Source: a virus
Lineage: Duplodnaviria; Heunggongvirae; Uroviricota; Caudoviricetes
Direction: 5' to 3' (one strand)
IMG/VR virus record: IMGVR_UViG_2913177423_000001
Span: 1-64,000 of that record
Length of the DNA: 64,000 nucleotides
Within the stretch, counting starts at the first letter, position 1, and the number at the start of each line of letters is the position of its first letter. Shown here piece by piece: positions 4,461 to 36,775 of this stretch. The position numbers were made by a program, and so were the translations under genes. The notes beneath the pieces were generated by a model, which saw only the letters and a list, made by a program, of their open reading frames with translations, was not told the origin of the DNA and did no database searches.

Positions 4461-5846
4461 TTGAACAAGTCAGTTACTTCTGCGCTTTCCGAGGCCGCAG
4501 ACATTAACAGCGTCATTGCTCTGGTTTCTTCATTAGAGAGGAAGGAAACACGCCTGGGGCGAAGTAGCTACGTAGTCACCAGCAAAGGCGCAGAGGTAAA
4601 GACAGCTTTTAAGGTTGTTGATGCCAGTAGCCTAATCATTTCGAATAACCTTGACGGTACGATTAACACTGCATTCCCGGAAGAACTCCAGCCACGTGAT
4701 CGTACACGTCTATCTAGCAAACTTCAGGTTAACCGTATTGCCTCCAATTTACGCCCAGCACAATTAACGGATTCAGGAATGAGTAGCCACGGAGCGCCAA
4801 TAGTTGGGCCTGACAACGTTGTTGAATCTGGTAATGGAAGGAGTATGGGGATCTGGCGCGCCTATGAGCAAGGACAGGCAGATGAATATCGCCAGTACCT
4901 GATCGACCATGCGAAAGAGTTTGGTCTGAATCCTGACGAAATTTCGCAAATGTCTATGCCCGTACTGGTGCGTGAAAGACTCACTGATGTAGATCGTGCG
5001 CAGTTCGCTCGCGATTCCAACATAAGTGATCTGCAAGAGATGGCGGCGAGTGAGAAAGCGTATGCTGATGCGCAATTCCTCACTGAGAGCGTCATGGCGC
5101 TATTTAATCCTTCAGAAGATGGAAATCTACTGGCGCGGTCCAATGATGCTTTTATTCGTGCGTTTTTGCGCGAAATAGGCGATACCGCGACGGCGGGTTT
5201 GCTTACTGCCGATGGGCGCCCTACGAAACAGCTGATCGACCGCATCCAGAATGCGATTTTTGCCAAAGCCTACAAAGATGAGCGACTGGTCCGGTTGGTG
5301 GCGGAAGAGCCAGATCCGGAAATGCGTAACATCCTGACCGCACTCAATACGGCAGCCAGCGATTTTGCGCAAATGCAGTCGCTGTCTGGCGACGTTCACC
5401 ATGACGCCGTAACTGGTTTAGTGGACGGTATAGAGCAGGTTAACGGTCTGGATACACAGGCAATTGCGGCACTCCAGGAAGCAATCAATCTTGTTCGTGA
5501 AGCCAAAGACAACGGTCAGGCCGTTGAAGAAGTGATCGCCCAAAGGGGGTTATTCGGCGACAGCACGCCAGAAGCAGAGGCGTTGGCGCTATTCATCGTA
5601 GCAAATAATCGTAGCGCGAAGCGTATGGGGGCAGCATTCAAAAAAATGGCGCAAAAAATCAACGACGAGCTGATTCATAAACAACAGGCGCTTGGCGATA
5701 TGTTCGGTGGTGAAGAAGTCGATTTGCGCAGTATTTTGTCTGTTGTTTCTGATGAAATTGAGGCTGAGTTTGGTGAAGGGAAAGGTCTGAACTTTGCTAT
5801 GTTCGAAAATTCTACAGCCCTAAATAATTGCAGTACGGAAAACTAA
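4461..5846 (+). CDS. hypothetical protein (461 aa), possible virion-associated protein
   Basis: long ORF; TTG start at 4461 preceded by GGGGGAG; no recognisable catalytic motif. Confidence 0.55.
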   Translation: MNKSVTSALSEAADINSVIALVSSLERKETRLGRSSYVVTSKGAEVKTAFKVVDASSLIISNNLDGTINTAFPEELQPRDRTRLSSKLQVNRIASNLRPAQLTDSGMSSHGAPIVGPDNVVESGNGRSMGIWRAYEQGQADEYRQYLIDHAKEFGLNPDEISQMSMPVLVRERLTDVDRAQFARDSNISDLQEMAASEKAYADAQFLTESVMALFNPSEDGNLLARSNDAFIRAFLREIGDTATAGLLTADGRPTKQLIDRIQNAIFAKAYKDERLVRLVAEEPDPEMRNILTALNTAASDFAQMQSLSGDVHHDAVTGLVDGIEQVNGLDTQAIAALQEAINLVREAKDNGQAVEEVIAQRGLFGDSTPEAEALALFIVANNRSAKRMGAAFKKMAQKINDELIHKQQALGDMFGGEEVDLRSILSVVSDEIEAEFGEGKGLNFAMFENSTALNNCSTEN

Positions 5847-5910
5847 ACCAACCGCTGAAATCACATACTGATTATGCTGCCGCGAAACTGGAAACAATTC
5901 GCGGTGATTC

Positions 5911-7593
5911 ATGGCAACGAAAGACAAAAACAAAGGTTTTCTGTCGGCATTGAAGAAAGCCTTCAACGGTGGTGATGTTACGCCCGCCGATCCGGTCGTT
6001 TTTACGAGCGGGCATAGTGTCGTTGCTCGTTCCGGCCTGTCCGCTTTACGTCCAGGCATCCTGGGGGGCAACAGCGATGGCATGACGAGTGCAGCAGATT
6101 CAATTTCTTTATCCGCTGAACTGCCCGGCGAGCGCCTGCAAAAGTACAACATCCTGGAAACGATGGCTAAAAGCCCGACTATCTCGACGGCTTTAAACAT
6201 TCACATTGCACATGCGCTTGCGCCTTCAAAAAAAACCGGGCTGGCATTCACGCTTTCGCCAAAAGATGGTTCCGATGCCGAGGCGGTAAGTAGATGTGAA
6301 GAGTTAACCGCAGATTTAGGGGCGATGATTAATGACGGTCTGCCTTCATGGGCCATGATTATGGCGATCTTTGGGGTGTCTTATGTCCGACCTTATGCTG
6401 AACAGGGCAGAGGGATAACTGGCATTGAATCCAGTTATTACACTCTTCCACACTTCGTCCAGGAATTTTATCGCGGTAGCCAGCTGGTCGGTTTCAGTGG
6501 TGATTACATTCTGGATACGCATAGTTTGCGCAGGGTAATAACCGAACCGTGGAATCTTGTTTCCATGAAAAACCCGTATTGGACGCCGCAGCATAAGGTT
6601 ATTCCGGTTAGCTACGGTACAAAAGGGTATTCACTGTTAAGTGATCAGGCTGATAAGCCGTTAATGGAGACGCAGAATTACGGAACTTCATTCCTGGAAT
6701 ACAGTTATGAACCCTACCTGAATTTATGTGCTGCGCTCGCCGCGCTGAAATCAACTCGAAATAATGCAGCCAAAATTGACCGTCTGATTGCTCTTACGAC
6801 GAACACACTGGACCCAGTTAATGCGGCTAACTATACGCGTGGCGTCAGCCAGGCATTGAAGCGTCATAGTGACCTGGTGGCACAAAGATCGATTAATGCC
6901 AACGCTATTCCTACGGTGCTTAACCATCTGATACCAGTTATGGGCGATGGGAAGAACGGCATCACTATTGATACGCAGTCTATACCCGCAGATATCAGCG
7001 GAATTGAAGACGTTATGTTTCATCTTCGTCAGTTAGCGGCCAGTTTAGGCATTGACGCCACGATGCTCGGTTGGGCAGATCAAATGAGTGGCGGGCTTGG
7101 AGAGGGAGGATGGCAACAAACTGCTATCCAAGCTGCATTACGTGCGAACTGGATCAGACAGGCCGCCCAGCGAACTATTTATCGGCTTCATGACATTCAC
7201 CTCGCCTACAAATACGGGAAGGTTTACACCGAAACAAACCGCCCGTATGACGTGCAATTCAACTCAATGAACACGGCTATCCAGGAGGAAGAAAACCGAG
7301 AACTGGATGCGCGCGCCAACTTTGTAGCTGTCATCTCGCAAATTATGGACCAGGTCCAGAACAACCCGAAACTGGCTGGTAGCGACGCGTTTATGCGCTA
7401 TCTGTTCACCGAACAGCTGCACATCGACGATGACACTCTCAATACCATGATCAAAGAGTTTAAGGCGAATGAATCAGAGCAAAACAACGAGCATGGCATG
7501 TACGAATCCGCGCCGTTGTCGTCAGGCGACAATCCAGAAAACTGGACGCTAGAGCAGTTAATCAACTTTGCAAAATTTGTGATGAGCAATTAA
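5911..7593 (+). CDS. hypothetical 560-aa protein, portal-protein candidate by size and context only
   Basis: ATG at 5911; long ORF in same rightward operon; no diagnostic motif seen. Confidence 0.4.
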   Translation: MATKDKNKGFLSALKKAFNGGDVTPADPVVFTSGHSVVARSGLSALRPGILGGNSDGMTSAADSISLSAELPGERLQKYNILETMAKSPTISTALNIHIAHALAPSKKTGLAFTLSPKDGSDAEAVSRCEELTADLGAMINDGLPSWAMIMAIFGVSYVRPYAEQGRGITGIESSYYTLPHFVQEFYRGSQLVGFSGDYILDTHSLRRVITEPWNLVSMKNPYWTPQHKVIPVSYGTKGYSLLSDQADKPLMETQNYGTSFLEYSYEPYLNLCAALAALKSTRNNAAKIDRLIALTTNTLDPVNAANYTRGVSQALKRHSDLVAQRSINANAIPTVLNHLIPVMGDGKNGITIDTQSIPADISGIEDVMFHLRQLAASLGIDATMLGWADQMSGGLGEGGWQQTAIQAALRANWIRQAAQRTIYRLHDIHLAYKYGKVYTETNRPYDVQFNSMNTAIQEEENRELDARANFVAVISQIMDQVQNNPKLAGSDAFMRYLFTEQLHIDDDTLNTMIKEFKANESEQNNEHGMYESAPLSSGDNPENWTLEQLINFAKFVMSN

Positions 7594-7606: not shown

Positions 7607-8605
7607 ATGCAATCACTGAACACTGTTACGGATCGCTTCTCCCTGGTAGAGAAAATCCGCAAACACACACCGCAGAACAATCGAAATTACGTTATTCAGT
7701 CGGTGCGAGACACATTCAACTCCCCAGAAACAAAAGAGCGTATCGCACTTGGTGAGATGTATGGCTATTACGGACATGGTCGCCGGGCGATGCACTATAA
7801 CAAAACGAAAAGCCTGAACCTGCCGGAAGTCTCTGTTGTGATGGTTGATGGGAAACCTGTTGTATTGGAGAACGTGCCATCAAACAGGACTATCGACATT
7901 TCGATTGACGACAACGGCATTGTTACCCATACGCAGGAAATACTGGATACAGACACCGGGCGTATTGTACAGGGAATGATTAATTCTGGTGCGGGTGGTT
8001 GGTCGTGGGCTACATCTGGCCCAGATTCATCTGTATCTCTGGTAAAGTCTTTTCACGGCTTTGATTACGTAACTGTGCCTAACTATATCAGTCTGGACAA
8101 GAAAAGCCTGATGCTGGAATCAGCAGAAGAGCGCGACGCGGCTATTCATGCGGCACTTATCGAACAAGGTTTTACCGATAACGCGGCTACGGATCTTGTT
8201 CACCACTTTTCAGCAATGAAGAATCAGCAGGCTATTTTCGAGTCAGCACAGCGTGAAGCCCTTGAGTCAGAATTGATGCTCCTTGAAGTGGAAAATATGC
8301 AACTTCGCGACAAATTACGCAACCAGGCCGAAATGATGGAAAGCCAAGGCGAAGATGCGAAGAAATGCCGTAGGATTTTGCGTGATGCTATCCAGGAAAT
8401 GCCTGTTTTTATCAGCGCAGAACAGCGCCGGGCGCTCTGCCGTATGCAGTCTGAAGATGATGCTCGCATAGTGGCTGCGATGCTTGAATCTCTGGGGGCA
8501 AATGCGACTTATGGCTTGCCGATATCAGGCAAGAAAGAGCCGGAGTTATCGCCGAAGGAGAGCAAAAATACTACCCCATTACTCTTCGTTTCGCGACGGG
8601 CATAA
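7607..8605 (+). CDS. hypothetical 332-aa protein with C-terminal coiled coil
   Basis: ORF 13 bp downstream of preceding gene; last gene of the block before a terminator. Confidence 0.5.
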   Translation: MQSLNTVTDRFSLVEKIRKHTPQNNRNYVIQSVRDTFNSPETKERIALGEMYGYYGHGRRAMHYNKTKSLNLPEVSVVMVDGKPVVLENVPSNRTIDISIDDNGIVTHTQEILDTDTGRIVQGMINSGAGGWSWATSGPDSSVSLVKSFHGFDYVTVPNYISLDKKSLMLESAEERDAAIHAALIEQGFTDNAATDLVHHFSAMKNQQAIFESAQREALESELMLLEVENMQLRDKLRNQAEMMESQGEDAKKCRRILRDAIQEMPVFISAEQRRALCRMQSEDDARIVAAMLESLGANATYGLPISGKKEPELSPKESKNTTPLLFVSRRA

Positions 8606-8615
8606 CTGCCATATG

Positions 8616-8632
8616 AAATTAAATTTCTAACA
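8616..8632 (-). promoter_or_regulatory. C1-like operator motif copy
   Basis: AAATTAAATTTCTAACA, reverse complement of the recurrent TGTTAGAAAATTAATTT motif. Confidence 0.5.
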
Positions 8633-8720
8633 TAGTGTATTTATATACACTGTTGATCCTGTCCGATGTGATCGAGTAGGATCGCGGTCACTGCTCCGGT
8701 AGCGACTGCCAAAAAAAAGC

Positions 8721-8746
8721 AAAAGCCGCTGAGAAGCGGCTTTTTG
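8721..8746. terminator. bidirectional intrinsic terminator
   Basis: GCCGCT-gaga-AGCGGC hairpin flanked by A-run upstream and T-run downstream. Confidence 0.7.
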
Positions 8747-8748
8747 GT

Positions 8749-8776
8749 GTATAAATCTACGGACATAGATTTATAC
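8749..8776. promoter_or_regulatory. perfect 11-bp inverted repeat, candidate operator
   Basis: GTATAAATCTA-cggaca-TAGATTTATAC immediately upstream of gene 8806..9768. Confidence 0.4.
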
Positions 8777-8805
8777 GGTAGATAGATTTTTCACGGAACT
8801 ATCTG

Positions 8806-9768
8806 GTGAATATTTTAAATTCAGTTTCAGTAACTTTCAACACTTCTGAGTATAAAAACAACACTGAATACCACAAAAAAATCAAAGGTCATCAGTTGAG
8901 TTTTTTTGCTCGCCACTGTGGTTTTCTTTCCCCTTCACATAGCGCCATTATTGCCGAGTTCGCCAACCTGGCAGGGGCTACCGATGAATACATGATCCGT
9001 CGCTCATATGCCGATATGTCAGATATTACGGGACGCAGTATTTCAACTGTACGCCGGGCATTTGCTGAAGCGACGAAGTGTGGAATGCTTGTTAAACAAC
9101 ACCAGGTGGCGAATAACAATGCCCAGGTTTGTAACGTATATCGGTTTACAACACAATTTCTCCACTTCATTCATGTTGCAATGGAGATCGGGGGTAAGCA
9201 GGGCATTAAATTTGCCAACGCAACAAAACTGGTTAAGCAGTTGATTTCAAAGGTTCGTTATTTTTTTGAAACTGGGAACCCCCTGTTCAAATTGAACAAG
9301 TCCCCCCATGTTCAAAATGAACAGCCAATAGAAAATAAGAGTAAACCCATAACCAAAAGAAGAGAAAGATCATGCGCGGTTCAGCCGAAGGCTTCACCAG
9401 CAGATAGTTCTCAAGCGGGTAATGGCTTACTGGATAAAAAACCAGTGATTAGAGAAGAGCATGTCAACCACAGCCTGGCTGCGGCAAAAGCGAGAGCTGC
9501 AAAGCGTCGTTCAGACGAGGGCTATGCAAAACAACAGGCTCTGTATCGTACCGCTGAAAAGCTGGCAAAAAAATTTGCATGGATACGTAATGCAGCTGCC
9601 GCAGTGAATAAGCCCAAACCATCCAGTGCTCTGGATTTCTCTATGGATTATTCTGGCTATCAGGGATGTAAAACAGTTGCTGAAGCCTTTGAACTGATGA
9701 AACAGCGTGGCTATCAGTCTGAATTTGACCGTGAAGATTGGTCAGTTCCAGCGGGCTTCAGAGGATGA
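8806..9768 (+). CDS. winged-helix DNA-binding protein, possible regulator or replication initiator
   Basis: 320-aa ORF with GTG start; HTH-like segment DITGRSISTVRRAFAEATKCGMLVK; basic C-terminal region. Confidence 0.4.
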   Translation: MNILNSVSVTFNTSEYKNNTEYHKKIKGHQLSFFARHCGFLSPSHSAIIAEFANLAGATDEYMIRRSYADMSDITGRSISTVRRAFAEATKCGMLVKQHQVANNNAQVCNVYRFTTQFLHFIHVAMEIGGKQGIKFANATKLVKQLISKVRYFFETGNPLFKLNKSPHVQNEQPIENKSKPITKRRERSCAVQPKASPADSSQAGNGLLDKKPVIREEHVNHSLAAAKARAAKRRSDEGYAKQQALYRTAEKLAKKFAWIRNAAAAVNKPKPSSALDFSMDYSGYQGCKTVAEAFELMKQRGYQSEFDREDWSVPAGFRG

Positions 9769-27441: not shown

Positions 27442-28802
27442 GCCTGGTTAATTGGGAAGAGCACCGCGCCAAATTTATAGCGTTGCGTGAAGAAAAAGGG
27501 ATCACCGTAAAGGAATACTGCGAGCAACACGACCTTAGCTTCAATACCGCCAGAAAGCATCTCAATATGAAAAAAAATGAGGTGCGGTCGCAGGTGAAGA
27601 CTACAAAAAAAAGCACCAAATCACCTGAAAAAAAACGGGCAGGAAGAGCAAAAAAAAGGCCAGAAGAGGGTACAGAAACAACAAAATTTACAGAAACTGA
27701 CAATTCACAGAGCGGAAGTTCTTTCCGGAGCATGCCGAGAAAGAAAACTTCGGATCATAAAAATAACGACAATAATAACAATGAGATAAAAGAATCTGTC
27801 AGGAGATCATTGCGCGAAAAAATGGCGAAAATGATCCCCGCCGAAGATAAATGCGCCTCAAAAACCGAGGGATCTTCAGCAATGATCCCTGGCGGTGCTG
27901 TGCAGCGTGCCACGTTGCCCACTACGAGTGTGGCTCGCGACATGATGAAGAACGGCGCAGAAGAGCACCTGCGGTTAGCAATTCAAATGGCGCAAGAACG
28001 CGCACTTCAGTACCAAAGCATTGTTGATCAGGAGGCCGAACGCCTACAGGCGGAGATAGACGCCCTGGGTGATGAACAGCCAGAAGGAATGCACCCTGGG
28101 CAGCGACTTCTCGGTCTAATCAGTGACGCGGCCTACTACATGAACGATTTTATCAGTAGGTTGGCAGCGATATATCAGTCCGAACAAAAGCTGCGACAGG
28201 GTGATGAAAAACTTCGTCAGGGTGCTCGCCAGCAAGCATTCAGAGAGGCCGAGGCCAGAGAAAAACTCGAATTAGCACGCCTACAGGCCGAACAGCGCGG
28301 CAAAGAGATTGAATATCGAATTGGCGCTGACGCACGCGCAGCCAGAGTTATCGCCGCCGCTATACGTATGCGTGAGCGCGAGGAACTGGACGATATCGGT
28401 GTTGCTGAATACATCGAGCGTCAGGGTGTCAGTGTCCCGGCTATCCTCGCGGCGCGCGCGGCAAAAGCTATCGATCTTCTCGAACCGCCAGTTTCTGACA
28501 TCAATGATGTTGATGATGAACAGCTGGACAAAGAGGCAAGGGAGTATGCATTGCTTCAGGCAAACCATTCTCAATGGCTGGCAGAGCGCCGGGCAGATGT
28601 GGCTACCATTGTTGAAGACCTGGGGTGCGGAGATTACGACAGCAATGGCGAGCGTAAGGCTGGGGAATTCGAGGCCAACGACGAAGAGTTAGATATTGAC
28701 CCTTCGGCAACGGCTGAAATTTACGGTGATTATGATGCATCAGACGTAGGGTATGACGCCGGAGATGATGATATCGCGATAGAACCTCCGGAGGACGATT
28801 AA
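27438..28802 (+). CDS. terminase small subunit, PacA-like
   Basis: 454-aa ORF ATGA-coupled to the large terminase; N-terminal HTH-like region, basic low-complexity stretch and acidic C-terminus. Confidence 0.6.
   Translation: MSLVNWEEHRAKFIALREEKGITVKEYCEQHDLSFNTARKHLNMKKNEVRSQVKTTKKSTKSPEKKRAGRAKKRPEEGTETTKFTETDNSQSGSSFRSMPRKKTSDHKNNDNNNNEIKESVRRSLREKMAKMIPAEDKCASKTEGSSAMIPGGAVQRATLPTTSVARDMMKNGAEEHLRLAIQMAQERALQYQSIVDQEAERLQAEIDALGDEQPEGMHPGQRLLGLISDAAYYMNDFISRLAAIYQSEQKLRQGDEKLRQGARQQAFREAEAREKLELARLQAEQRGKEIEYRIGADARAARVIAAAIRMREREELDDIGVAEYIERQGVSVPAILAARAAKAIDLLEPPVSDINDVDDEQLDKEAREYALLQANHSQWLAERRADVATIVEDLGCGDYDSNGERKAGEFEANDEELDIDPSATAEIYGDYDASDVGYDAGDDDIAIEPPEDD
27753..27887. other. 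candidate pac site (GATC cluster inside small terminase gene)
   Basis: five GATC sites within 135 bp (27753, 27805, 27833, 27871, 27884), analogous to the methylation-sensitive hexamer repeats of the P1 pac site. Confidence 0.35.
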
Positions 28803-30310
28803 TGGCTGGCGGGCGCAAGATTAAATGCGTCACCAGCGATCCACGCTGGCGCGATTGGGTAATCAAATACCGCTACAACTTTACCAAGGCTGTTATTGAT
28901 ATTTTTGGATTGTTTCCCTCACCTCAGCAGCAGGAGATTATCCAGTCCGTACAGCAAAAAGGGAGCAGAACCACTGTTACCTCTGGTCACGGTACAGGGA
29001 AATCGTCGTTAACGGCTATGTTGTTGCTGATTTATTTGATTCTGTTCCCCGATGCCCGTGTCATCATTGTTGCTAACAAGATAGGCCAGGTTAAAACAGG
29101 CGTATTCAAATACGTTAAACAGTATTGGGCGAATGCAGTTAAGCGTCACGGGTGGTTACAGACCTATTTTGTCCTGTCTGACACCATGTTTTATGAACGT
29201 TCCCGCAAAGGGATCTGGGAAGTTCTCTGCAAAGGTTATCGACTCGGTAACGAAGAAGCACTGGCGGGGGAGCACGCGGCACATTTGCTTCTAATTCTGG
29301 ATGAAGCATCAGGTATATCTGATAAAGCGATCGGCGTAATGACTGGCGCTCTGACTGAAGAAGATAACCGAATGTTGATGCTATCCCAGCCAACAAGGCC
29401 AAGTGGTTATTTCTACGATTCGCACCATTCTCAAGCTAAAACCCCAGACAACCCGAAAGGGATCTGGACAGCAATTGTTCTTAACTCAGAAGAATCACCG
29501 TTCGTCACACCACAATTCATCAGGCAGAAACTCCTGGAATATGGCGGTCGCGATTCTATTGAGTACATGGTTAAGGTGCTTGGTCAGTTCCCTCGGGAGA
29601 TTAACGGCTATTTGCTTGGTCGTGATGAATGCGATCGCGCAGCGCGGCGCAAGGTGTTGTTGGAGAAAAACTGGGGATGGGTGGCAACAGCTGACGTTGG
29701 TAACGGGCGAGACAAGTCAGTTCTTAATATCTGTAAAGTGTCTGGTCACCGGGAAAAGCGGCGTGTTGTTAACTTTAAGATAATGGAAATGCCAGGGACT
29801 ATGGACCCGCTGGCTTTTGCTGACTTTATATACAACGAATGCACGCCGGATAAATACCCGAATATTACAATCGCGGTTGACGCTGATGGTTTTGGTTCAG
29901 ATACCTGTGCGCAGTTGGTGCGCCGTGGTGCTAATCCGGTACGTATTCGGTGGGGGAAACCCATGTTTTCGAACAAAGACAAGGAGCGTTTTGTTAACCA
30001 GCGTGCCTACGCAAATATTATGGCTCGTGATGCCATAAAGTCAGGCCGTATGCGTATAGACAGTGACCCTAAAACGGCAGAGCAAGCGTCAAAAATCCCT
30101 TTTTTACTGAATGAAGAAGGGAAGATGGCGATGATGCGCAAAGAGCACATGCGGCAAAAGCTAAACATCAAATCGCCTGACCGATGGGATACCTACTGCT
30201 TCACTATGCTGGTGGACTATGTGCCTGCAAATGAAGATATCGGTGCGGAAATGGCTACCTTCCGCGACCAGGTTCTTGCAGACATAGAAATGCCGGATCT
30301 GGATATATAA
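28802..30310 (+). CDS. pacB: terminase large subunit, PacB-like
   Basis: Walker A TSGHGTGKSS, Walker B LLLILDEAS, 502 aa with C-terminal nuclease-size domain. Confidence 0.85.
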   Translation: MAGGRKIKCVTSDPRWRDWVIKYRYNFTKAVIDIFGLFPSPQQQEIIQSVQQKGSRTTVTSGHGTGKSSLTAMLLLIYLILFPDARVIIVANKIGQVKTGVFKYVKQYWANAVKRHGWLQTYFVLSDTMFYERSRKGIWEVLCKGYRLGNEEALAGEHAAHLLLILDEASGISDKAIGVMTGALTEEDNRMLMLSQPTRPSGYFYDSHHSQAKTPDNPKGIWTAIVLNSEESPFVTPQFIRQKLLEYGGRDSIEYMVKVLGQFPREINGYLLGRDECDRAARRKVLLEKNWGWVATADVGNGRDKSVLNICKVSGHREKRRVVNFKIMEMPGTMDPLAFADFIYNECTPDKYPNITIAVDADGFGSDTCAQLVRRGANPVRIRWGKPMFSNKDKERFVNQRAYANIMARDAIKSGRMRIDSDPKTAEQASKIPFLLNEEGKMAMMRKEHMRQKLNIKSPDRWDTYCFTMLVDYVPANEDIGAEMATFRDQVLADIEMPDLDI

Positions 30311-32787: not shown

Positions 32788-32803
32788 GATTAAATTTCTA
32801 ACA
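32787..32803 (-). promoter_or_regulatory. C1-like operator motif copy
   Basis: AGATTAAATTTCTAACA overlapping the cre stop codon. Confidence 0.5.
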
Positions 32804-32861
32804 CACCTTTTTAGATTGTTATCTTTGCTGTAAAGTACCCTCTCCTATTTCGGAGGGTGCT

Positions 32862-33206
32862 TTGCAGAGTCAAATCACGGAATCAAGACGCTTTAAGGTT
32901 GATGGTTACACCGTAACCTTCGCCGCTGGTGTTAAGAACAGTCATGCTGTCGTTGTATTTGGCATCATGACCGGACTTGAGGCCGTCCCTGTGTTTACCC
33001 TCGAAAAAAACTGGCGAAATCTGGAGGAAGCGGAAAGCTACGTCCGGAGAGTAACCATCGCTGCCGCCGAAAAACTCCTGTCCCACTATCAGGAAAATTA
33101 TCGCACTATGGTCGAGAAGATTAATCTCGCTTTCACTCGCCCCACTACAGGCTTTATCGCCCCGGAGACTAATGCAGGTCGCTATCCTGCAAGGGGGCGT
33201 CGGTGA
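32862..33206 (+). CDS. hypothetical protein (114 aa), cra-like position
   Basis: TTG start with GGAGGG upstream; downstream of cre as cra is in P1. Confidence 0.45.
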   Translation: MQSQITESRRFKVDGYTVTFAAGVKNSHAVVVFGIMTGLEAVPVFTLEKNWRNLEEAESYVRRVTIAAAEKLLSHYQENYRTMVEKINLAFTRPTTGFIAPETNAGRYPARGRR

Positions 33207-33679
33207 AAAATTATTACCCATCTCTGAATTGTTACCCGTCTTCGTATCCGGAATTGTCCGGGAAGCTGTTAGCTCTATTGGCTAAATCACCAACTGAATG
33301 GTTTAGGCCAGTCGTTATCAATCCGCACTTCCTGGATTACGGATCTGTTCGCACTCGTAACGAACTCAAAAACCTGCTGGCGCATGGATTCATTCGACAT
33401 CGCGCCGGGAAAGGCTATCAGTTAGCGATTGCGCCAGAAGAGGCCGTGCGGCTATTCGCATATCGTGACAGCCAGACAAAAGCGCGGGTAATAGCTCAAA
33501 TACTTCATAACGGCAGCACCTATGCCCGCCAGTTTGGCGGCGACACGTCGCAGTTCTTGCGGGCTGTGCGATCGCTGGAAGAACAAGGAGTTATTGAAAG
33601 TTCCTGTCTTCCTGTTCCTACCGTTCCACATATCAAACGTCGGGTTTACACCTTCACGCAGAGAGCAAAAAAACAATGA
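33203..33679 (+). CDS. hypothetical protein (158 aa)
   Basis: GTG start with AAGGGGG upstream; coupled to flanking genes. Confidence 0.45.
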   Translation: MKNYYPSLNCYPSSYPELSGKLLALLAKSPTEWFRPVVINPHFLDYGSVRTRNELKNLLAHGFIRHRAGKGYQLAIAPEEAVRLFAYRDSQTKARVIAQILHNGSTYARQFGGDTSQFLRAVRSLEEQGVIESSCLPVPTVPHIKRRVYTFTQRAKKQ

Positions 33680-34170
33680 TTTACGTAAAAGTGAAACGCC
33701 TACATCCGGCAGCGAAACTTCCAGCTTATGCCACTGCCGGATCGGCGGCGATGGATTTTGAGGCTGTTGAAATAACACCGTGCGTCGATAGCAATGGTGC
33801 AATTTCCTCAAGCTGGTGGGTGCATACCGGGCTGGCTATGGAGATCCCGCCCGGCTGGTGTCTGAAACTCTATCCGCGTTCCGGATTGGGCTGCAAAAAA
33901 CATACTCGCCTGGCTAACTGTGTAGGAATTATCGACTCCGATTATCGCGGTGAAATCATGGCAAAACTGATTACTGATCCCGGCGGTGAAGGCGTTTGCC
34001 TCAAGCCAGGAATGGCGGTCATGCAAGGCATTTTTGAGCGTGTTGAACAAGTCTCTCTTGTCGAAGTTGAGGAACTCAACGAAACGGAACGTGGTGCTGG
34101 TGGCTTTGGTAGCACATCAGAAGGCCGCTTTGAAATTAAGCGTTCACCGCTTCAGTACGAAAAGTTATAA
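33676..34170 (+). CDS. dut: dUTP diphosphatase (dUTPase)
   Basis: trimeric dUTPase motifs RSGLG, GIIDSDYRGE and GGFGSTSEG. Confidence 0.85.
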   Translation: MIYVKVKRLHPAAKLPAYATAGSAAMDFEAVEITPCVDSNGAISSSWWVHTGLAMEIPPGWCLKLYPRSGLGCKKHTRLANCVGIIDSDYRGEIMAKLITDPGGEGVCLKPGMAVMQGIFERVEQVSLVEVEELNETERGAGGFGSTSEGRFEIKRSPLQYEKL

Positions 34171-34184
34171 GCAGAGGGACAACT

Positions 34185-34871
34185 ATGAAGGAAAAGCTTT
34201 TGAAGACGCTCCCTGAGTACAAATACCACGGAACCATTCGCGCATCGAAAATCAAAAAGATCAAGCCTATTGGCGGATTAATTCCTCTCTGGGGTGATAT
34301 TGAGGTCACCGAACCAAAAGGGGTAACGATTCGTGTTGATTTAATGTTTTTACAAAAATACCGACCACAAATTGGCGGGTATTTGGTCGTTCATGAGGAC
34401 GGATATTTGTCCTATTTATCAGAAAAAACATTTAAAGAGGGCTTTAGTCGAATTGATGACATCTCAGAAAATGAAACAACAGTCATCATTGCCGATGACA
34501 AAGGCATGATGATTAATCTTGCCGGGATCGTATCTATTTATGCTGATGACATCACTAACCAACAAGAAGAAATCGACCTTGAGGCAGCCGACTTTTCTGA
34601 CGCGCTGATGTGGCTGAAGGATGGCAAGAAAGTTGCTCGACGCGGGTGGAACGGCGAAAACCAATTCTGCTGGCTGGTTCCTGACAAACAGGGCGCTTCA
34701 AGACTAACCCCTATAAAACATGCCGCAAGCGGAGAGCTTGAAATCAATTTCGGCTCGCCCCTTGCTCCTTATGGAGAGCATTTCACTTTGAAAAATGCAC
34801 AAGGTGTCTTTCTTCCGTGGCTACCTTCTGTCGGCGACCTGCTGGCATGTGACTGGTTTGTAGTGGAGTGA
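34185..34871 (+). CDS. protein with C-terminal DUF2829 (Tad2-like) domain
   Basis: C-terminal ALMWLKDGKKVARRGWNGENQF and WLPSVGDLLACDWFVV are a strong DUF2829 signature; unique 130-aa N-terminal domain. Confidence 0.6.
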   Translation: MKEKLLKTLPEYKYHGTIRASKIKKIKPIGGLIPLWGDIEVTEPKGVTIRVDLMFLQKYRPQIGGYLVVHEDGYLSYLSEKTFKEGFSRIDDISENETTVIIADDKGMMINLAGIVSIYADDITNQQEEIDLEAADFSDALMWLKDGKKVARRGWNGENQFCWLVPDKQGASRLTPIKHAASGELEINFGSPLAPYGEHFTLKNAQGVFLPWLPSVGDLLACDWFVVE

Positions 34872-34877
34872 TTTGAC

Positions 34878-35651
34878 ATGGAAAGCACCAAAACAACTCA
34901 ATACCGCTTGCGTAATGGCCTGCTGGTGGCTGTTAACGCCGACATGTCACTGCCGTTTGACACGATAGAACGCACTATCATGACGTATCTCGGCTTTAAT
35001 GAAGAGCTGAATGAAGAGCATGGCGTAGCTATATGGAGTGATGCAGACAGCGGCGTTCGTCGTTACATCACTGCCAGAGGCAAAGACTACTCTCTGGAAG
35101 AACTGTTTACCCTTGCGCAGTCTTTCGAATGTGTAGCATTGGACCTGTTTAATGATCCTGCTATAGCGCAACGACTTATCCGCGAGCTTGGGCTGTCGGT
35201 TACCCCAATTATCTTTAAAAATGGCAGCCTGACTGGCACATGGCGCGTAGAGCGCATCTCAAACTACCTTCCATATAACCGCCAGTTAAACGGGGTAATT
35301 TCCGGCGTCAATCAGCCTGTAGCGTGTGAAAACGCAAACCTGGTTGTCGCTGTTTTGGCAACTGCATGTCGCGTTATTGGTTTGACTAAACAGGCATTTA
35401 TCCATTTTCCCAATGGTGCAGAAGGTGGCGTAGAAATTATCGCGTGTGATTTCGAATTTACCTGGATGCTTCGTGAATATCTGGACCGAACAGTGTTCCG
35501 CGCCGAAGAACTGGATCTGTATATCACGTCAACGATTCCTGATGATGTGCGAGCTGAAGCAATCGCTACAGCCAGAGCGAAATGCCGTGCGTCGATTGCA
35601 GAACAAGCCAAAGAAGAAGTTACAGTTAAGGAAGTGGCAGATGGTAACTAA
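34878..35651 (+). CDS. hypothetical protein (257 aa)
   Basis: ATG at 34878; stop overlaps start of next gene. Confidence 0.5.
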   Translation: MESTKTTQYRLRNGLLVAVNADMSLPFDTIERTIMTYLGFNEELNEEHGVAIWSDADSGVRRYITARGKDYSLEELFTLAQSFECVALDLFNDPAIAQRLIRELGLSVTPIIFKNGSLTGTWRVERISNYLPYNRQLNGVISGVNQPVACENANLVVAVLATACRVIGLTKQAFIHFPNGAEGGVEIIACDFEFTWMLREYLDRTVFRAEELDLYITSTIPDDVRAEAIATARAKCRASIAEQAKEEVTVKEVADGN

Positions 35652-36735
35652 GAGCAATATTTATAAAGATCCGCGCTGGCTGTCGCTGGTGGAGAAATAT
35701 AAAGACAATTGGGTACTGGCAGCAAAAGAATTGTTTGATATTGATTTAAGCCACCAGCAACAACAAATTGTTGAAGCTATACAGCCCAATAATGCAAAAG
35801 CTACTGTCACCACTCCGCATGGGATCGGACGACCGCAAGTGCTTGCTGTTATTAGTACCCTTTATACGATTATGTATCCTGATTCCCGGACAGTAATTGT
35901 TTATCCAAAATCAAATGCTTGCAAAAGAGGAATTGTTGCATATGTGTGGCAATGTTGGGAGGCATTGCTGAAAAAACAACCTTTTATCATTGAGTATTTT
36001 AAGGTCGGTGATAGCGGTCTGATGTTCAATGAATTTTGGGGAATGTGCTTTTGTAACTACCGCCTTAACTATGAAGATAGCATTGCAGGTCACTACGCCG
36101 ACCATCTTTTATTCATTATTGTGGATTCCGCACATATCAGCGATCGGGCATACAGTATTGTGTGGGCAAGCATGACTAGTGGTGATTCACGCATATTGCT
36201 CACTTCAATTCCGTCACCAGAGGAAATAGGCTTTTTTTATGATTCACATCATGGACGTGCTTTAGCTGAAGATAATCCGAGTGGTGTCTATAAAGCCATT
36301 AAGCTGAGTGCTGAGGATTCACCATTTATTACCCAAGAATATCTTGATCATTTTGCCGAAAGGTATGGCGGGCGAAATAGTGATGACTATCGTCGTATGA
36401 TTCTTGGTGAGTTCCCTGGTATTAGGGAGGCTGTTCTTGAATCAGATATGCCGAAGACAATGCGCTTTTCGATGCCTGATGGTAGTGAATGGACAATGCC
36501 ATTACGAGTGATAGCCCGGCATCATGCGCAGCACCACGCCAAAAAACATAGCGTCACGACATTAGAATGGTTGAAATCGCACACTATTCCACTCTTCACT
36601 GCAGATCACAATGCTATCGTTGAGTGGGCCAAAACAATTCCGTGGGAGCATGTCGCTGAATACGCTCACATGCTAAAACCGCCGAAAGACAGACACGAAA
36701 TTAGCTGGCTGACAGCCGAAAAAATCATTGAATGA
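35641..36735 (+). CDS. terminase large-subunit ATPase-domain paralog with degenerate Walker motifs
   Basis: ATG at 35641 overlapping upstream stop; aligns to PacB-like N-terminus (DPRW, QQQ-I, GFFYDSHH, DNP-G, SPF-T) but Walker A is PHGIGRPQ and Walker B IIVDSAH; no nuclease domain. Confidence 0.6.
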   Translation: MVTKSNIYKDPRWLSLVEKYKDNWVLAAKELFDIDLSHQQQQIVEAIQPNNAKATVTTPHGIGRPQVLAVISTLYTIMYPDSRTVIVYPKSNACKRGIVAYVWQCWEALLKKQPFIIEYFKVGDSGLMFNEFWGMCFCNYRLNYEDSIAGHYADHLLFIIVDSAHISDRAYSIVWASMTSGDSRILLTSIPSPEEIGFFYDSHHGRALAEDNPSGVYKAIKLSAEDSPFITQEYLDHFAERYGGRNSDDYRRMILGEFPGIREAVLESDMPKTMRFSMPDGSEWTMPLRVIARHHAQHHAKKHSVTTLEWLKSHTIPLFTADHNAIVEWAKTIPWEHVAEYAHMLKPPKDRHEISWLTAEKIIE

Positions 36736-36743
36736 TATCAACA

Positions 36744-36775
36744 AAAAGCCCGCCTGGTCTGGCGGGCTTCTTTTC
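36744..36775. terminator. bidirectional intrinsic terminator
   Basis: GCCCGCC-tggtct-GGCGGGC hairpin with A-run before and T-run after, between convergent genes. Confidence 0.7.

What the first reader, a model, noticed from the sequence alone, without database searches (positions are those of the whole stretch)
35641..36735. Degenerate paralog of the large terminase ATPase domain (candidate packaging decoy)
The 365-aa product aligns by eye to the N-terminal ATPase domain of the PacB-like terminase at 28802-30310 (shared DPRW, QQQ-I, TVT-GHG, GYFYDSHH/GFFYDSHH, DNP-G, SPF-T). Its Walker A is PHGIGRPQ instead of GHGTGKSS (Lys to Arg, Ser to Pro) and its Walker B is IIVDSAH instead of ILDEAS (Glu lost). 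It is also about 140 aa shorter, so the nuclease domain is absent. A catalytically dead terminase fragment kept in an operon with dUTPase and a DUF2829 protein could act as a regulator of packaging or as a decoy that interferes with packaging by competing phages. I do not recall such a paralog in P1.
Basis: partly seen in the sequence, partly recalled or inferred. Interest (0 to 1): 0.75.

Follow-up and report, generated by a model that had tools for sequence, protein, structure and literature searches.

The report
Dead terminase-ATPase paralog with added domain
This P1-family phage-plasmid carries a second, selectively maintained copy of the ATPase half of its DNA-packaging enzyme whose ATP-site residues are gone and whose nuclease half is replaced by a widespread small phage domain of unknown function, so it most likely works by binding a partner, but which partner is not known.

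Summary
ORF 35641-36735 (364 aa) matches the ATPase half of the window's own PacB at 37% identity over 258 aa (E 7e-61), and its model has the large-terminase ATPase fold. The Walker A lysine and an intact Walker B are missing in all seven lineages examined. The gene is nevertheless intact and under purifying selection (dN/dS about 0.1-0.3).

- The last ~104 aa are not a nuclease remnant. They form a separate small domain with about 1,150 clusters, mostly stand-alone ~100-aa phage proteins, and no Pfam or PDB match.
- The gene is an optional cassette, full-length in 163 of 790 matching plasmid records. In reference P1, IS1 and isaB occupy its slot.
- It usually follows an IsaA homolog, overlapping or within a few bases, in early-type operons next to ssb, ban, ref, humD or cre.

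The paralogs form one clade, sister to all PacBs. Backbones with 91-99% identical PacB carry paralog N-domains only ~64% identical.

Function is untested. My best guess (about 0.3) is a non-catalytic terminase-ATPase mimic used in phage-host or phage-phage conflict. A role as packaging regulator or recombination accessory remains open.

The parts
35641..36735 (+). Complete CDS of the PacB paralog (364 aa plus stop)
   Evidence: ORF list. BLASTP to PacB E 7e-61. phrog_5902 full length, E 1.7e-165. Intact in 31 related loci. dN/dS 0.09-0.3.
35641..36420 (+). N-terminal domain, residues 1-260: large-terminase ATPase fold with degenerate active site
   Evidence: AF2 model with Foldseek PDB hits to TerL ATPase domains. 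NJ tree places it in one clade sister to all PacBs, bootstrap 100.
35815..35838 (+). Walker A remnant PHGIGRPQ (residues 59-66). The Lys position holds Arg and the Ser/Thr position holds Pro.
   Evidence: Alignments. Every genuine terminase of this family read has SGHG-x-GK[ST].
36106..36135 (+). Walker B remnant LLFIIVDSAH (residues 156-165). The hhhhDE motif is not intact.
   Evidence: Across lineages the two acidic positions read V-D, T-E, M-D, I-N, L-N, P-N and V-N.
36235..36252 (+). FYDSHH motif (residues 199-204), fully retained and the segment best conserved between paralogs and PacBs
   Evidence: Invariant columns. Cross-identity is 0.60 in residues 201-220. The same motif recovered distant terminases.
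36421..36732 (+). C-terminal domain, residues 261-364: a small alpha/beta domain of unknown function, elsewhere mostly a stand-alone phage protein
   Evidence: 1,147 clusters at E<=1e-3, mostly 90-130 aa. AF2 pLDDT 91.3. No PDB fold match. No relation to the PacB nuclease by hhalign. Fusions to DUF1351, Lar and gp49_66.
34878..35651 (+). Upstream gene overlapping the paralog start: homolog of P1 IsaA (257 aa)
   Evidence: 47% identity to P1 IsaA, E 1e-86. phrog_2326. Immediately upstream of the paralog in 29 of 31 loci.
36746..36769 (+). Strong intrinsic-terminator-like hairpin (9 bp stem, 7 G-C pairs, T run) closing the gene run, between the paralog and the convergent humD-like gene
32789..32805 (-). 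Candidate C1-type operator (ATTAAATTTCTAACACA on the + strand) in the 74-bp gap between cre and the six-gene run that ends with the paralog
   Evidence: 14 sites of the motif in the window against 1.9 in shuffles. Sequence read. Function is inferred, not shown.
32862..34871 (+). Other genes of the same co-directional run: 114-aa and 158-aa unknowns, dUTPase (33676-34170), and a Tad2-like/DUF2829 protein (34185-34871)
28802..30310 (+). The functional large terminase PacB, with intact Walker A GHGTGKSS and Walker B LILDEAS. It is the reference for the comparison, not part of the paralog locus.

Best explanation
WHAT IT IS (shown).
- It is a real, expressed-looking accessory gene of P1-family phage-plasmids.
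- The protein has two modules.
- Module 1 (residues 1-260) is an ancient duplicate of the PacB ATPase domain. It keeps the fold and several non-catalytic motifs: the N-terminal helices, the Q motif, FYDSHH...NPxG and YGG...LGxFP.
- In every lineage module 1 has lost the Walker A lysine and an intact Walker B. It has also lost constraint on the segments around residues 81-100 and 121-140.
- Module 2 (residues 261-364) is an unrelated, widespread small phage domain.
- The two modules also occur fused in the opposite order, and each occurs alone. This points to a functional link between them.
- The gene is an optional cassette in early-type operons beside DNA-metabolism and anti-defence genes. 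It usually follows an IsaA homolog directly, overlapping it or within a few bases.

HOW IT WORKS (inferred).
- It cannot be powered by a canonical P-loop ATPase site and has no nuclease domain, so it must act by binding.
- I think it is most likely a non-catalytic mimic of the terminase ATPase domain, made early in lytic growth and used in conflict rather than in housekeeping packaging.
- The most attractive specific version is that it occupies, without activating, host sensors that recognise the terminase ATPase domain (Avs1-3, Upx). Those sensors' recognition partly depends on terminase-bound ATP.
- Module 2 would add a second contact.

CONFIDENCE BY LAYER.
- Real selected gene and PacB paralog: about 0.95.
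- Catalytically inactive: about 0.85.
- Early accessory cassette: about 0.7.
- Conflict-related mimic: about 0.35.
- Specifically aimed at terminase-sensing immunity: about 0.2.
For: Paralogy and fold:
- BLASTP E 7e-61.
- Foldseek best hits are TerL ATPase domains.
- The paralogs are monophyletic in 100/100 bootstraps and sister to a PacB clade supported in 98/100.

Dead active site across seven lineages:
- Walker A reads GIGRPQ, GIGQKT, GIGHKS, GIGETS, GVGT[KT]T, GVGSSH and GIGCKH.
- Every genuine terminase of the family read has SGHG-x-GK[ST].
- Paralog identity drops to 0.22-0.23 in residues 81-100 and 121-140, where PacBs keep 0.59-0.68.

Selection:
- 32 intact CDS.
- dN/dS 0.09-0.3 in both domains, within and between subfamilies.

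Module 2 is an independent domain:
- 1,147 clusters, mostly stand-alone.
- Confident model with no PDB match.
- hhalign probability 0.5% against the PacB nuclease domain.
- Permuted fusion P0010.
- N-domain-only forms P0007 and L149.
- C-domain-only gene in phage JK004.

Accessory status:
- A full-length copy is in 163 of 790 matching plasmid records.
- P1 and a 98%-identical variant differ exactly by paralog versus IS1 plus isaB.
- That slot is a published region of difference, RD-2 (PMC6906374).
- P1 isaA and isaB are non-essential (PMC10695390).

Early-type operons:
- The C1-controlled operator Ossb heads ssb and isaA in P1.
- An operator-like site lies before the window's gene run.
- In a third lineage the gene follows ban.

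Conflict flavour:
- The neighbours are a Tad2-like protein and, in P1-type elements, the dar anti-restriction operon.
- Backbones with 91-99% identical PacB carry paralog N-domains only 64% identical, while the C-domain is nearly the same (dS 1.42 against 0.22).
- One C-domain relative is fused to Lar.

Precedent:
- T4 vs.8 and Ksap1/2 are terminase-ATPase-like accessory proteins of unknown function that engage Avs2.
- Avs2 recognition involves terminase-bound and bridging ATP (PMC13601566).
Against: - There is no experimental or co-folding evidence for any binding partner.
- Known terminase-like accessory proteins (vs.8, Ksap1/2) activate Avs2 rather than block it (PMC13601566).
- PADLOC, Pfam and NCBIfam give no hit, so no conflict role is documented.
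- The contexts (ssb, ban, ref, erf/exo, humD, theta) fit a DNA replication or recombination role equally well.
- The promoter of the window's gene run is not identified, and the operator assignment is inferred.
- dN/dS below 1 shows constraint, not positive selection. The allelic diversity can be explained by recombination alone.
- A non-canonical nucleotide site cannot be strictly excluded from sequence. Three lineages have a Lys one position downstream.
Confidence: 0.4

Rival explanations
1. It modulates the element's own packaging. The dead ATPase domain keeps terminase interfaces such as FYDSHH and the N-terminal helices. It binds PacA, PacB or the pac complex. This would delay or tune pac cleavage, or link the pacase to replication or recombination intermediates through the C-domain.
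For: - It is closest to PacB among all terminases.
- The most conserved shared segments are non-catalytic, which is what a retained protein or DNA interface would look like.
- In P1 both pacAB and the operons that hold this gene are early. This rests on P1 annotation and established P1 biology.
Against: - Reference P1 and about 80% of the matching plasmid records lack a full-length copy.
- The N-domain does not co-vary with PacB: near-identical PacBs are paired with N-domains 64% identical.
- It is never adjacent to pacAB.
- Constraint is lost in the segment just upstream of the Walker B strand, residues 121-140. By analogy with other terminases (my own knowledge, not tested here), the trans-acting arginine finger lies in that region.
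Confidence: 0.2
2. It is an accessory factor for replication, recombination or repair. The C-domain targets a DNA-metabolism partner such as SSB, helicase, SSAP/exonuclease, Ref or RecA. The dead terminase fold serves as a DNA-binding or oligomerising scaffold.
For: - The paralog lies next to ssb, ban/DnaB, ref, and humD and theta.
- The C-domain is fused to DUF1351 just upstream of erf, an exonuclease and ssb in Xanthomonas phages.
- It lies beside a RecE-like exonuclease in a Bordetella phage and near DUF3799.
- DUF1351 occupies the Gam-like slot upstream of SSAP genes (PMC8093625).
Against: - The evidence is context only. Early regions of temperate phages mix recombination genes with anti-defence genes.
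- No DNA-binding or known recombination fold is detected in either module.
Confidence: 0.2
3. It is a decoy that poisons packaging by competing phages. It would join or cap foreign terminase assemblies as a dominant-negative subunit.
For: - It has the fold and conserved interfaces of a terminase ATPase domain without activity.
- It has a patchy, cassette-like distribution.
- Its N-domain is allelically diverse.
Against: - In P1-type elements it sits in the C1-repressed ssb operon, so it is probably off in lysogens, where exclusion would matter most.
- It is only 33-38% identical to any PacB and 20-27% identical to other terminases, so specificity for foreign terminases has no obvious basis.
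- No PADLOC hit.
Confidence: 0.12
4. It is a still-active, non-canonical NTPase.
For: - Three lineages have a Lys one residue downstream of the canonical position (GIGQKT, GIGHKS, GVGTKT).
- An acidic residue remains near the Walker B strand in some lineages.
Against: - The displaced Lys is not kept within its own subfamily: P0008 reads GVGTTT and P0009 reads GVGSSH.
- The window copy has Arg-Pro-Gln.
- Four lineages have neither acidic residue.
Confidence: 0.05
5. It is a decaying pseudogene remnant of a duplicated terminase with no function.
For: Loss of the catalytic motifs and of the nuclease domain.
Against: - 32 intact CDS of 362-366 aa in four subfamilies.
- dN/dS 0.09-0.3.
- Start overlapping or abutting the upstream gene, with an SD-like sequence.
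- Confident fold.
Confidence: 0.03

Closest known systems
PacB, the large terminase subunit of phage P1 and D6-type phage-plasmids
   Same: The N-terminal 260 residues are homologous (33-38% identity) and have the same ATPase fold. The paralog shares the N-terminal helices, the Q motif, FYDSHH and the lid-region motifs. Its clade is sister to PacB.
   Different: - No Walker A lysine and no intact Walker B.
- No nuclease domain.
- Not adjacent to pacA.
- Optional rather than universal.
- Carries an unrelated C-terminal domain.
T4 vs.8 (with Ksap1/Ksap2): terminase-ATPase-like accessory proteins that trigger Avs2 (PMC13601566)
   Same: It is a phage-encoded stand-alone copy of the terminase ATPase fold without a nuclease domain. 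It sits in a non-structural early region, its function is unknown, and it is lineage-restricted.
   Different: - No sequence similarity to vs.8 (BLASTP E 8), so the duplication was independent (gp17 there, PacB here).
- vs.8 keeps Walker A (GGRQSGKS) and Walker B (IIDE), whereas this family has lost both.
- This family usually carries an extra C-terminal domain.
PHROG phrog_5902 ('unknown function')
   Same: Full-length match, E 1.7e-165, so the sequence family is already clustered in a public phage protein library.
   Different: The PHROG carries no function and no note on the dead active site or the two-module architecture. PacB itself also matches the profile strongly (E 3.5e-148).
Unnamed small phage domain (C-terminal part of phrog_17928; stand-alone ~100-aa proteins; DUF1351 fusions in Xanthomonas CP2-like phages)
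   Same: Residues 261-364 match this family, with conserved MPDGS-W, T-PLF, WA-NNMNW-DV and GW-NG motifs.
   Different: Elsewhere the domain is mostly a single-domain protein in early or recombination regions. Here it is fused to a dead terminase ATPase domain.

Membership tests
Large terminase subunit (TerL/PacB) | ASCE/P-loop terminase ATPase fold in the N-terminal half | tested here: met
   AF2 model with Foldseek PDB hits to P74-26, Sf6, T4 gp17, D6E and HK97 terminases, E about 2e-8. BLASTP to PacB E 7e-61.
Large terminase subunit (TerL/PacB) | Walker A with Gly-Lys-Ser/Thr (SGHG-x-GK[ST] in this family) | tested here: not met
   The window copy reads PHGIGRPQ. No paralog lineage keeps Lys at the canonical position. 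Every genuine family member read has it.
Large terminase subunit (TerL/PacB) | Walker B hhhhDE with a catalytic glutamate | tested here: not met
   LLFIIVDS in the window copy. The equivalent positions read V-D, T-E, M-D, I-N, L-N, P-N and V-N across lineages.
Large terminase subunit (TerL/PacB) | C-terminal RNase H-like nuclease domain | tested here: not met
   - No BLAST similarity beyond residue 259.
- hhalign of the C-domain profile against the PacB nuclease profile gives probability 0.5%.
- Foldseek of the C-domain model finds no nuclease.
Large terminase subunit (TerL/PacB) | Encoded next to a small terminase subunit (pacA) | tested here: not met
   The upstream gene is an IsaA homolog with no similarity to PacA. 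pacA and pacB lie about 5 kb away.
phrog_5902 | Full-length profile match | tested here: met
   E 1.7e-165, residues 4-363 on profile positions 2-358 of 359.
T4 vs.8-like terminase-ATPase accessory proteins | Sequence homology to vs.8/gp17 with conserved Walker A and B | tested here: not met
   BLASTP E 8. vs.8 has GGRQSGKS and IIDE, and the paralog has neither.
T4 vs.8-like terminase-ATPase accessory proteins | Triggers or binds Avs2 | not testable with these tools
   Needs a co-expression toxicity assay or multimer co-folding. Only the literature precedent is available (PMC13601566).
Known anti-phage defence systems (PADLOC-DB 2.0) | Match to any defence-system protein model | tested here: not met
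   No hit for the paralog, for IsaA-like, or for the four other neighbouring proteins scanned.
Small phage domain family (phrog_17928 C-terminus; stand-alone ~100-aa proteins) | Profile match over the whole ~95-residue domain with the conserved Trp, Pro and Ala positions | tested here: met
   - An hmmsearch with a four-sequence profile recovers 1,147 clusters.
- The alignments show conserved D21, S23, W25, P28, T56-x-PLF, W70-A71, W76, V79 and W97.
- phrog_17928 positions 399-490 match, E 3.9e-13.

The most novel reading that the evidence does not exclude
The loss of the ATP site is adaptive, not decay. On this reading the protein is an early-made, nucleotide-free mimic of the terminase ATPase domain. 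It occupies terminase-sensing immune receptors (Avs1-3, Upx) without completing the ATP-bridged interface that triggers them, and so shields PacB. The fused small domain, alone or with IsaA, would block receptor oligomerisation or add a second host target. This would be the first anti-defence protein derived from the very phage protein that the immune sensors detect.
Probability: 0.18. Interest if true: 0.85.

Novelty: new variant of a known kind. Interest (0 to 1): 0.55.

Why it matters
Terminase-ATPase-like accessory proteins in phages have only just surfaced. T4 vs.8 and Ksap1/2 were reported as Avs2 triggers, and their function is openly described as unknown.

This family adds a clean natural experiment:
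- It arose by an independent duplication of a different terminase (PacB).
- Its catalytic site has been discarded in every lineague examined, while the fold and other motifs are kept under selection.
- It is joined to a very widespread, uncharacterised small phage domain.

It sits in a genetically tractable system, P1-type phage-plasmids of E. coli. Natural presence/absence variants exist that are 98% identical elsewhere. Its role in immunity evasion, phage competition, packaging control or recombination can therefore be tested directly.

It would also give a first handle on a domain family with more than a thousand clusters and no Pfam entry.

Tried and rejected
- **C-terminus as a degenerate nuclease domain: rejected.** There is no BLAST signal. 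hhalign gives probability 0.5%. No nuclease appears in the fold search. The domain exists on its own in more than 1,000 clusters.
- **Upstream gene as a PacA (small terminase) paralog, making a duplicated pacAB pair: rejected.** It has no similarity to PacA and is the IsaA homolog.
- **P1 IsaB as a remnant of the paralog: rejected.** It has no similarity. DNA comparison shows a clean cassette replacement.
- **Pfam, NCBIfam, PADLOC and PDB sequence searches.** None gave a hit for the paralog. IsaA-like gave no Pfam, NCBIfam or PADLOC hit, and only chance-level PDB matches (E about 0.9). The C-domain was checked against Pfam and PDB sequences only; its best matches were not significant (Pfam E 0.028, PDB E 0.16).
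- **P1 C1 operator consensus in the window: 0 hits at up to 3 mismatches.** A different recurring motif was found instead.
- **Homology to T4 vs.8: none.**
- **An intact copy of the permuted (C-domain then dead terminase) fusion in plasmids: not found.** The only copy is truncated by a Tn3-family transposon.
- **Literature searches for a described PacB paralog or inactive terminase paralog: nothing relevant.**
Full report
**Setting.** The window is a D6-type member of the P1 family of E. coli phage-plasmids.
- The finding and its surroundings are 98-99% identical at protein level to plasmid II of E. coli RL465, and the gene order is the same.
- That order is lpa-like, pacA, pacB, a C1-type repressor, and a cre-like recombinase. 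A packed run of six co-directional genes follows: 114 aa, 158 aa, dUTPase, Tad2-like/DUF2829, a 257-aa protein, and the ORF in question.
- A strong terminator-like hairpin at 36746-36769 closes the run. Convergent humD-like and DNA pol III theta-like genes lie beyond it.

**Checking the observation.**
- ORF 35641-36735 encodes 364 aa. Its ATG lies 11 nt inside the upstream gene, behind an AAGGAAG Shine-Dalgarno-like sequence.
- BLASTP against the window's PacB (28802-30310) gives 37% identity over 258 residues, E 7e-61.
- Pfam does not recognise the protein. PHROGs places it full-length in phrog_5902, 'unknown function', E 1.7e-165.
- An AlphaFold2 model (pLDDT 79.6) finds large-terminase ATPase domains (P74-26, Sf6, T4 gp17, D6E, HK97) as its best PDB matches, at E about 2e-8.
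- Walker A reads PHGIGRPQ where PacB has GHGTGKSS. The Walker B strand reads LLFIIVDS where PacB has LLLILDEAS.
The only caveat is that the gapless alignment pairs PacB's Asp-Glu with Val-Asp rather than Asp-Ser. The motif is broken under either alignment.

**The defect is a family property.** I recovered 32 coding sequences (21 distinct proteins) from plasmid, viral-contig and genome collections, plus database clusters.
- Four full-length subfamilies emerge, at 97-99%, about 64%, about 52% and about 37% identity to the window copy.
- There are also two N-domain-only lineages (P0007 and a Citrobacter plasmid gene) and one permuted fusion.
- Walker A reads GIGRPQ, GIGQKT, GIGHKS, GIGETS, GVGTKT/GVGTTT/GVGSSH, GIGCKH and GTGTTT. 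No member keeps lysine at the canonical position.
- Where a lysine sits one residue later, it is not conserved within that subfamily.
- The two Walker B acidic positions read V-D, T-E, M-D, I-N, L-N, P-N and V-N.
- Every genuine terminase of this family read, from Enterobacterales to Clostridia, has SGHG-x-GK[ST].
- Constraint is also lost around residues 81-100 and 121-140. Paralog pairwise identity there is 0.22-0.23, against 0.59-0.68 among PacBs.
- Residues 141-260, including FYDSHH, stay conserved and similar to PacB.

**It is not a pseudogene.**
- All copies are intact at 362-366 aa.
- Nei-Gojobori dN/dS is 0.09-0.28 within the two well-sampled subfamilies (0.54 for the single pair in the 64% subfamily) and 0.09-0.32 between subfamilies, in both domains.

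**Origin.** A neighbour-joining tree of the ATPase region gives three results:
- The paralogs are monophyletic in 100/100 bootstraps.
- The PacBs are monophyletic in 98/100.
- The two together are monophyletic in 100/100 against other terminases of the family.

This indicates one old duplication, or one acquisition from a close relative, followed by faster evolution.

**The C-terminal 104 residues.**
- They show no similarity to the PacB nuclease domain by BLAST or by profile-profile comparison (hhalign probability 0.5%).
- A four-sequence profile searched against 1.84 billion representatives finds 1,147 clusters at E<=1e-3, of which 453 are at E<=1e-10.
- Most of the 150 best hits listed are stand-alone proteins of 90-130 aa. 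A few are longer fusions.
- With an 82-sequence alignment the domain folds confidently (pLDDT 91.3) as a beta-hairpin plus helices.
- It matches nothing in the PDB by fold or by sequence. In the viral structure library it matches only uncharacterised relatives.
- The domain has no Pfam model. Fusion partners elsewhere are DUF1351, Lar and gp49_66.
- In Xanthomonas CP2-like phages it is the C-terminus of a DUF1351 protein just upstream of erf, an exonuclease gene and ssb. DUF1351 is known to occupy the Gam-like slot upstream of single-strand-annealing genes (PMC8093625).
- In a Bordetella phage it lies beside a RecE-like exonuclease gene.
- Stand-alone copies lie in early regions near Cro-like, DUF3799 and integrase genes.

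**The two modules are linked.**
- In the P1-like Cronobacter phage JK004 the C-domain stands alone, two genes after the DnaB-like helicase. That is where a related element carries the full paralog.
- In one enterobacterial contig the order is reversed: the C-domain comes first, then a dead terminase-like domain with Walker A GTGTTT. That gene is truncated by a Tn3-family transposon.
- N-domain-only genes also exist.
- Independent fusions in both orders argue that the two modules work together.

**Distribution and context.**
- A full-length copy is present in 163 of 790 plasmid records that match the protein. It is also in two phage records named P1.
- Reference P1 lacks it. P1 and a variant (MH422554) are 98% identical up to the isaA stop codon and again from the end of hxr. 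Between those points P1 has 95 bp, IS1 and isaB, where the variant has the paralog.
- This slot is a published region of difference, RD-2 (PMC6906374).
- isaA and isaB are non-essential in P1 (PMC10695390).
- The 257-aa upstream protein is the IsaA homolog (47% identity, E 1e-86). It directly precedes the paralog in 29 of 31 loci, overlapping it or within a few bases to about 50 nt.
- In other lineages the paralog follows ban or ref.

**Likely timing of expression.**
- In P1 the ssb-isaA operon is headed by the C1-controlled operator Ossb. In P1-type elements the paralog is therefore probably repressed in lysogens and expressed early.
- In the window the P1 operator consensus is absent.
- A different motif, T[GA]TGTTAGAAAATTAAT, recurs 14 times against 1.9 expected.
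- It occurs upstream of the C1-type repressor gene, upstream of the lpa-like gene, and in the 74-bp gap between cre and the six-gene run.
- I read this motif as the candidate operator of the D6-type repressor. That reading is an inference.

**A telling detail.**
- D6-type backbones whose PacB C-terminal part (the last 200-206 residues held in the loci) is 91-99% identical to the window's carry either the window-type or the 64%-type paralog.
- Between those two types the N-domain has dS 1.42 and dN 0.40, whereas the C-domain has dS 0.22 and dN 0.02.
- The N-domain is therefore swapped or diversified independently of both PacB and the C-domain. That is not what a dedicated partner of the cognate PacB would be expected to show.

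**Mechanism.**
- Shown: terminase ATPase fold; catalytic residues lost family-wide; no nuclease; purifying selection; modular fusion to a widespread domain; optional cassette.
- Inferred: the protein acts by binding, early in lytic development.
- The closest functional precedent is recent. T4 vs.8 and Ksap1/2 are terminase-ATPase-like accessory proteins of unknown function that engage the immune sensor Avs2.
- Avs2 recognition uses terminase-bound and bridging ATP. The authors suggest such proteins may be anti-defence factors (PMC13601566).
- vs.8 is unrelated in sequence to this family and keeps its Walker motifs.
- I therefore favour, at about 0.35, a conflict-related terminase-ATPase mimic. 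At about 0.2 I favour the specific version in which a nucleotide-free mimic occupies terminase sensors without activating them.
- The neighbours are consistent with this: a Tad2-like protein here, and the dar operon in P1-type elements.
- A dispensable modulator of the element's own pacase (0.2) remains a live alternative.
- So does a replication or recombination accessory (0.2). An exclusion decoy against competing phages (0.12) also remains possible.
- An active non-canonical NTPase (0.05) and a pseudogene (0.03) are unlikely.

**Novelty and verdict.**
- The sequence family is already in public collections, as hypothetical proteins, occasionally mis-labelled 'terminase large subunit', and as phrog_5902.
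- I found no description of it as a catalytically dead PacB paralog, of its two-module architecture, or of the C-terminal domain family.
- It is best filed as a new variant of the barely explored class of terminase-ATPase-like accessory proteins.
The proposed function is untested.

Noticed in passing
window 5798, 8634(-), 9823, 20274, 21317, 22567, 22723, 26972(-), 31403(-), 32805(-), 45503, 46173(-), 57496, 57529(-): A motif of about 17 bp, T[GA]TGTTAGAAAATTAAT, recurs 14 times against 1.9 in shuffles. It lies upstream of the C1-type repressor gene, upstream of the lpa-like gene, and elsewhere. It is a candidate operator of the D6-type C1 repressor. The P1 operator consensus gives no hit.
   Followed up: partly
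window 34185-34871 (+): A 228-aa protein has a C-terminal Tad2-like (Thoeris anti-defence 2, PF11195/DUF2829) domain, E 1e-20, and an uncharacterised N-terminal extension. It sits directly after a dUTPase gene. It is a candidate anti-Thoeris gene on a phage-plasmid.
   Followed up: no
window 36421-36732; P0010-P0158: The C-terminal domain belongs to a large family of about 1,150 clusters at 50% identity. Members are mostly stand-alone ~100-aa phage proteins. The family has no Pfam model and no PDB fold match, yet gives a confident AF2 model. It merits a family definition of its own.
   Followed up: partly
L003 (P1 NC_005856) 5533-7245 against L001 (MH422554) 8003-9121: Reference P1 differs from a 98%-identical variant by a clean cassette swap directly after the isaA stop codon. 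P1 has 95 bp, IS1 and isaB where the variant has the PacB paralog. The laboratory P1 genome is thus not representative at this locus.
   Followed up: yes
L142 6001-6741 (GCA_024867085.4): A permuted fusion, with the small domain first and a dead terminase-like domain after it (Walker A GSGTGTTT), is truncated at residue 246 by a Tn3-family transposon. It sits near a Ref-like RecA-dependent nuclease gene and AbiH. No intact copy was found.
   Followed up: partly
L149 3974-4765 (Citrobacter freundii plasmid NZ_CP114569.1); L150 5001-5801: Two N-domain-only versions of the dead paralog exist, of 263 and 266 aa. One overlaps the end of a ref (recombination enhancement nuclease) gene. The other sits in the same operon position as in the window.
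   Followed up: partly
L068/L084 against window 35641-36735: The window-type and 64%-type paralogs have a near-identical C-domain (dS 0.22) but a strongly diverged N-domain (dS 1.42). Both sit in backbones with 91-99% identical PacB. This implies a recombination breakpoint at the domain boundary. Within the 64% type, residues of about 88-115 are hypervariable.
   Followed up: partly
window 36746-36769: A strong hairpin of 9 bp with 7 G-C pairs lies between the convergent paralog and humD-like genes. A T run follows it on the + strand. It may also terminate the convergent humD-like transcript, but only the + strand was scored.
   Followed up: no
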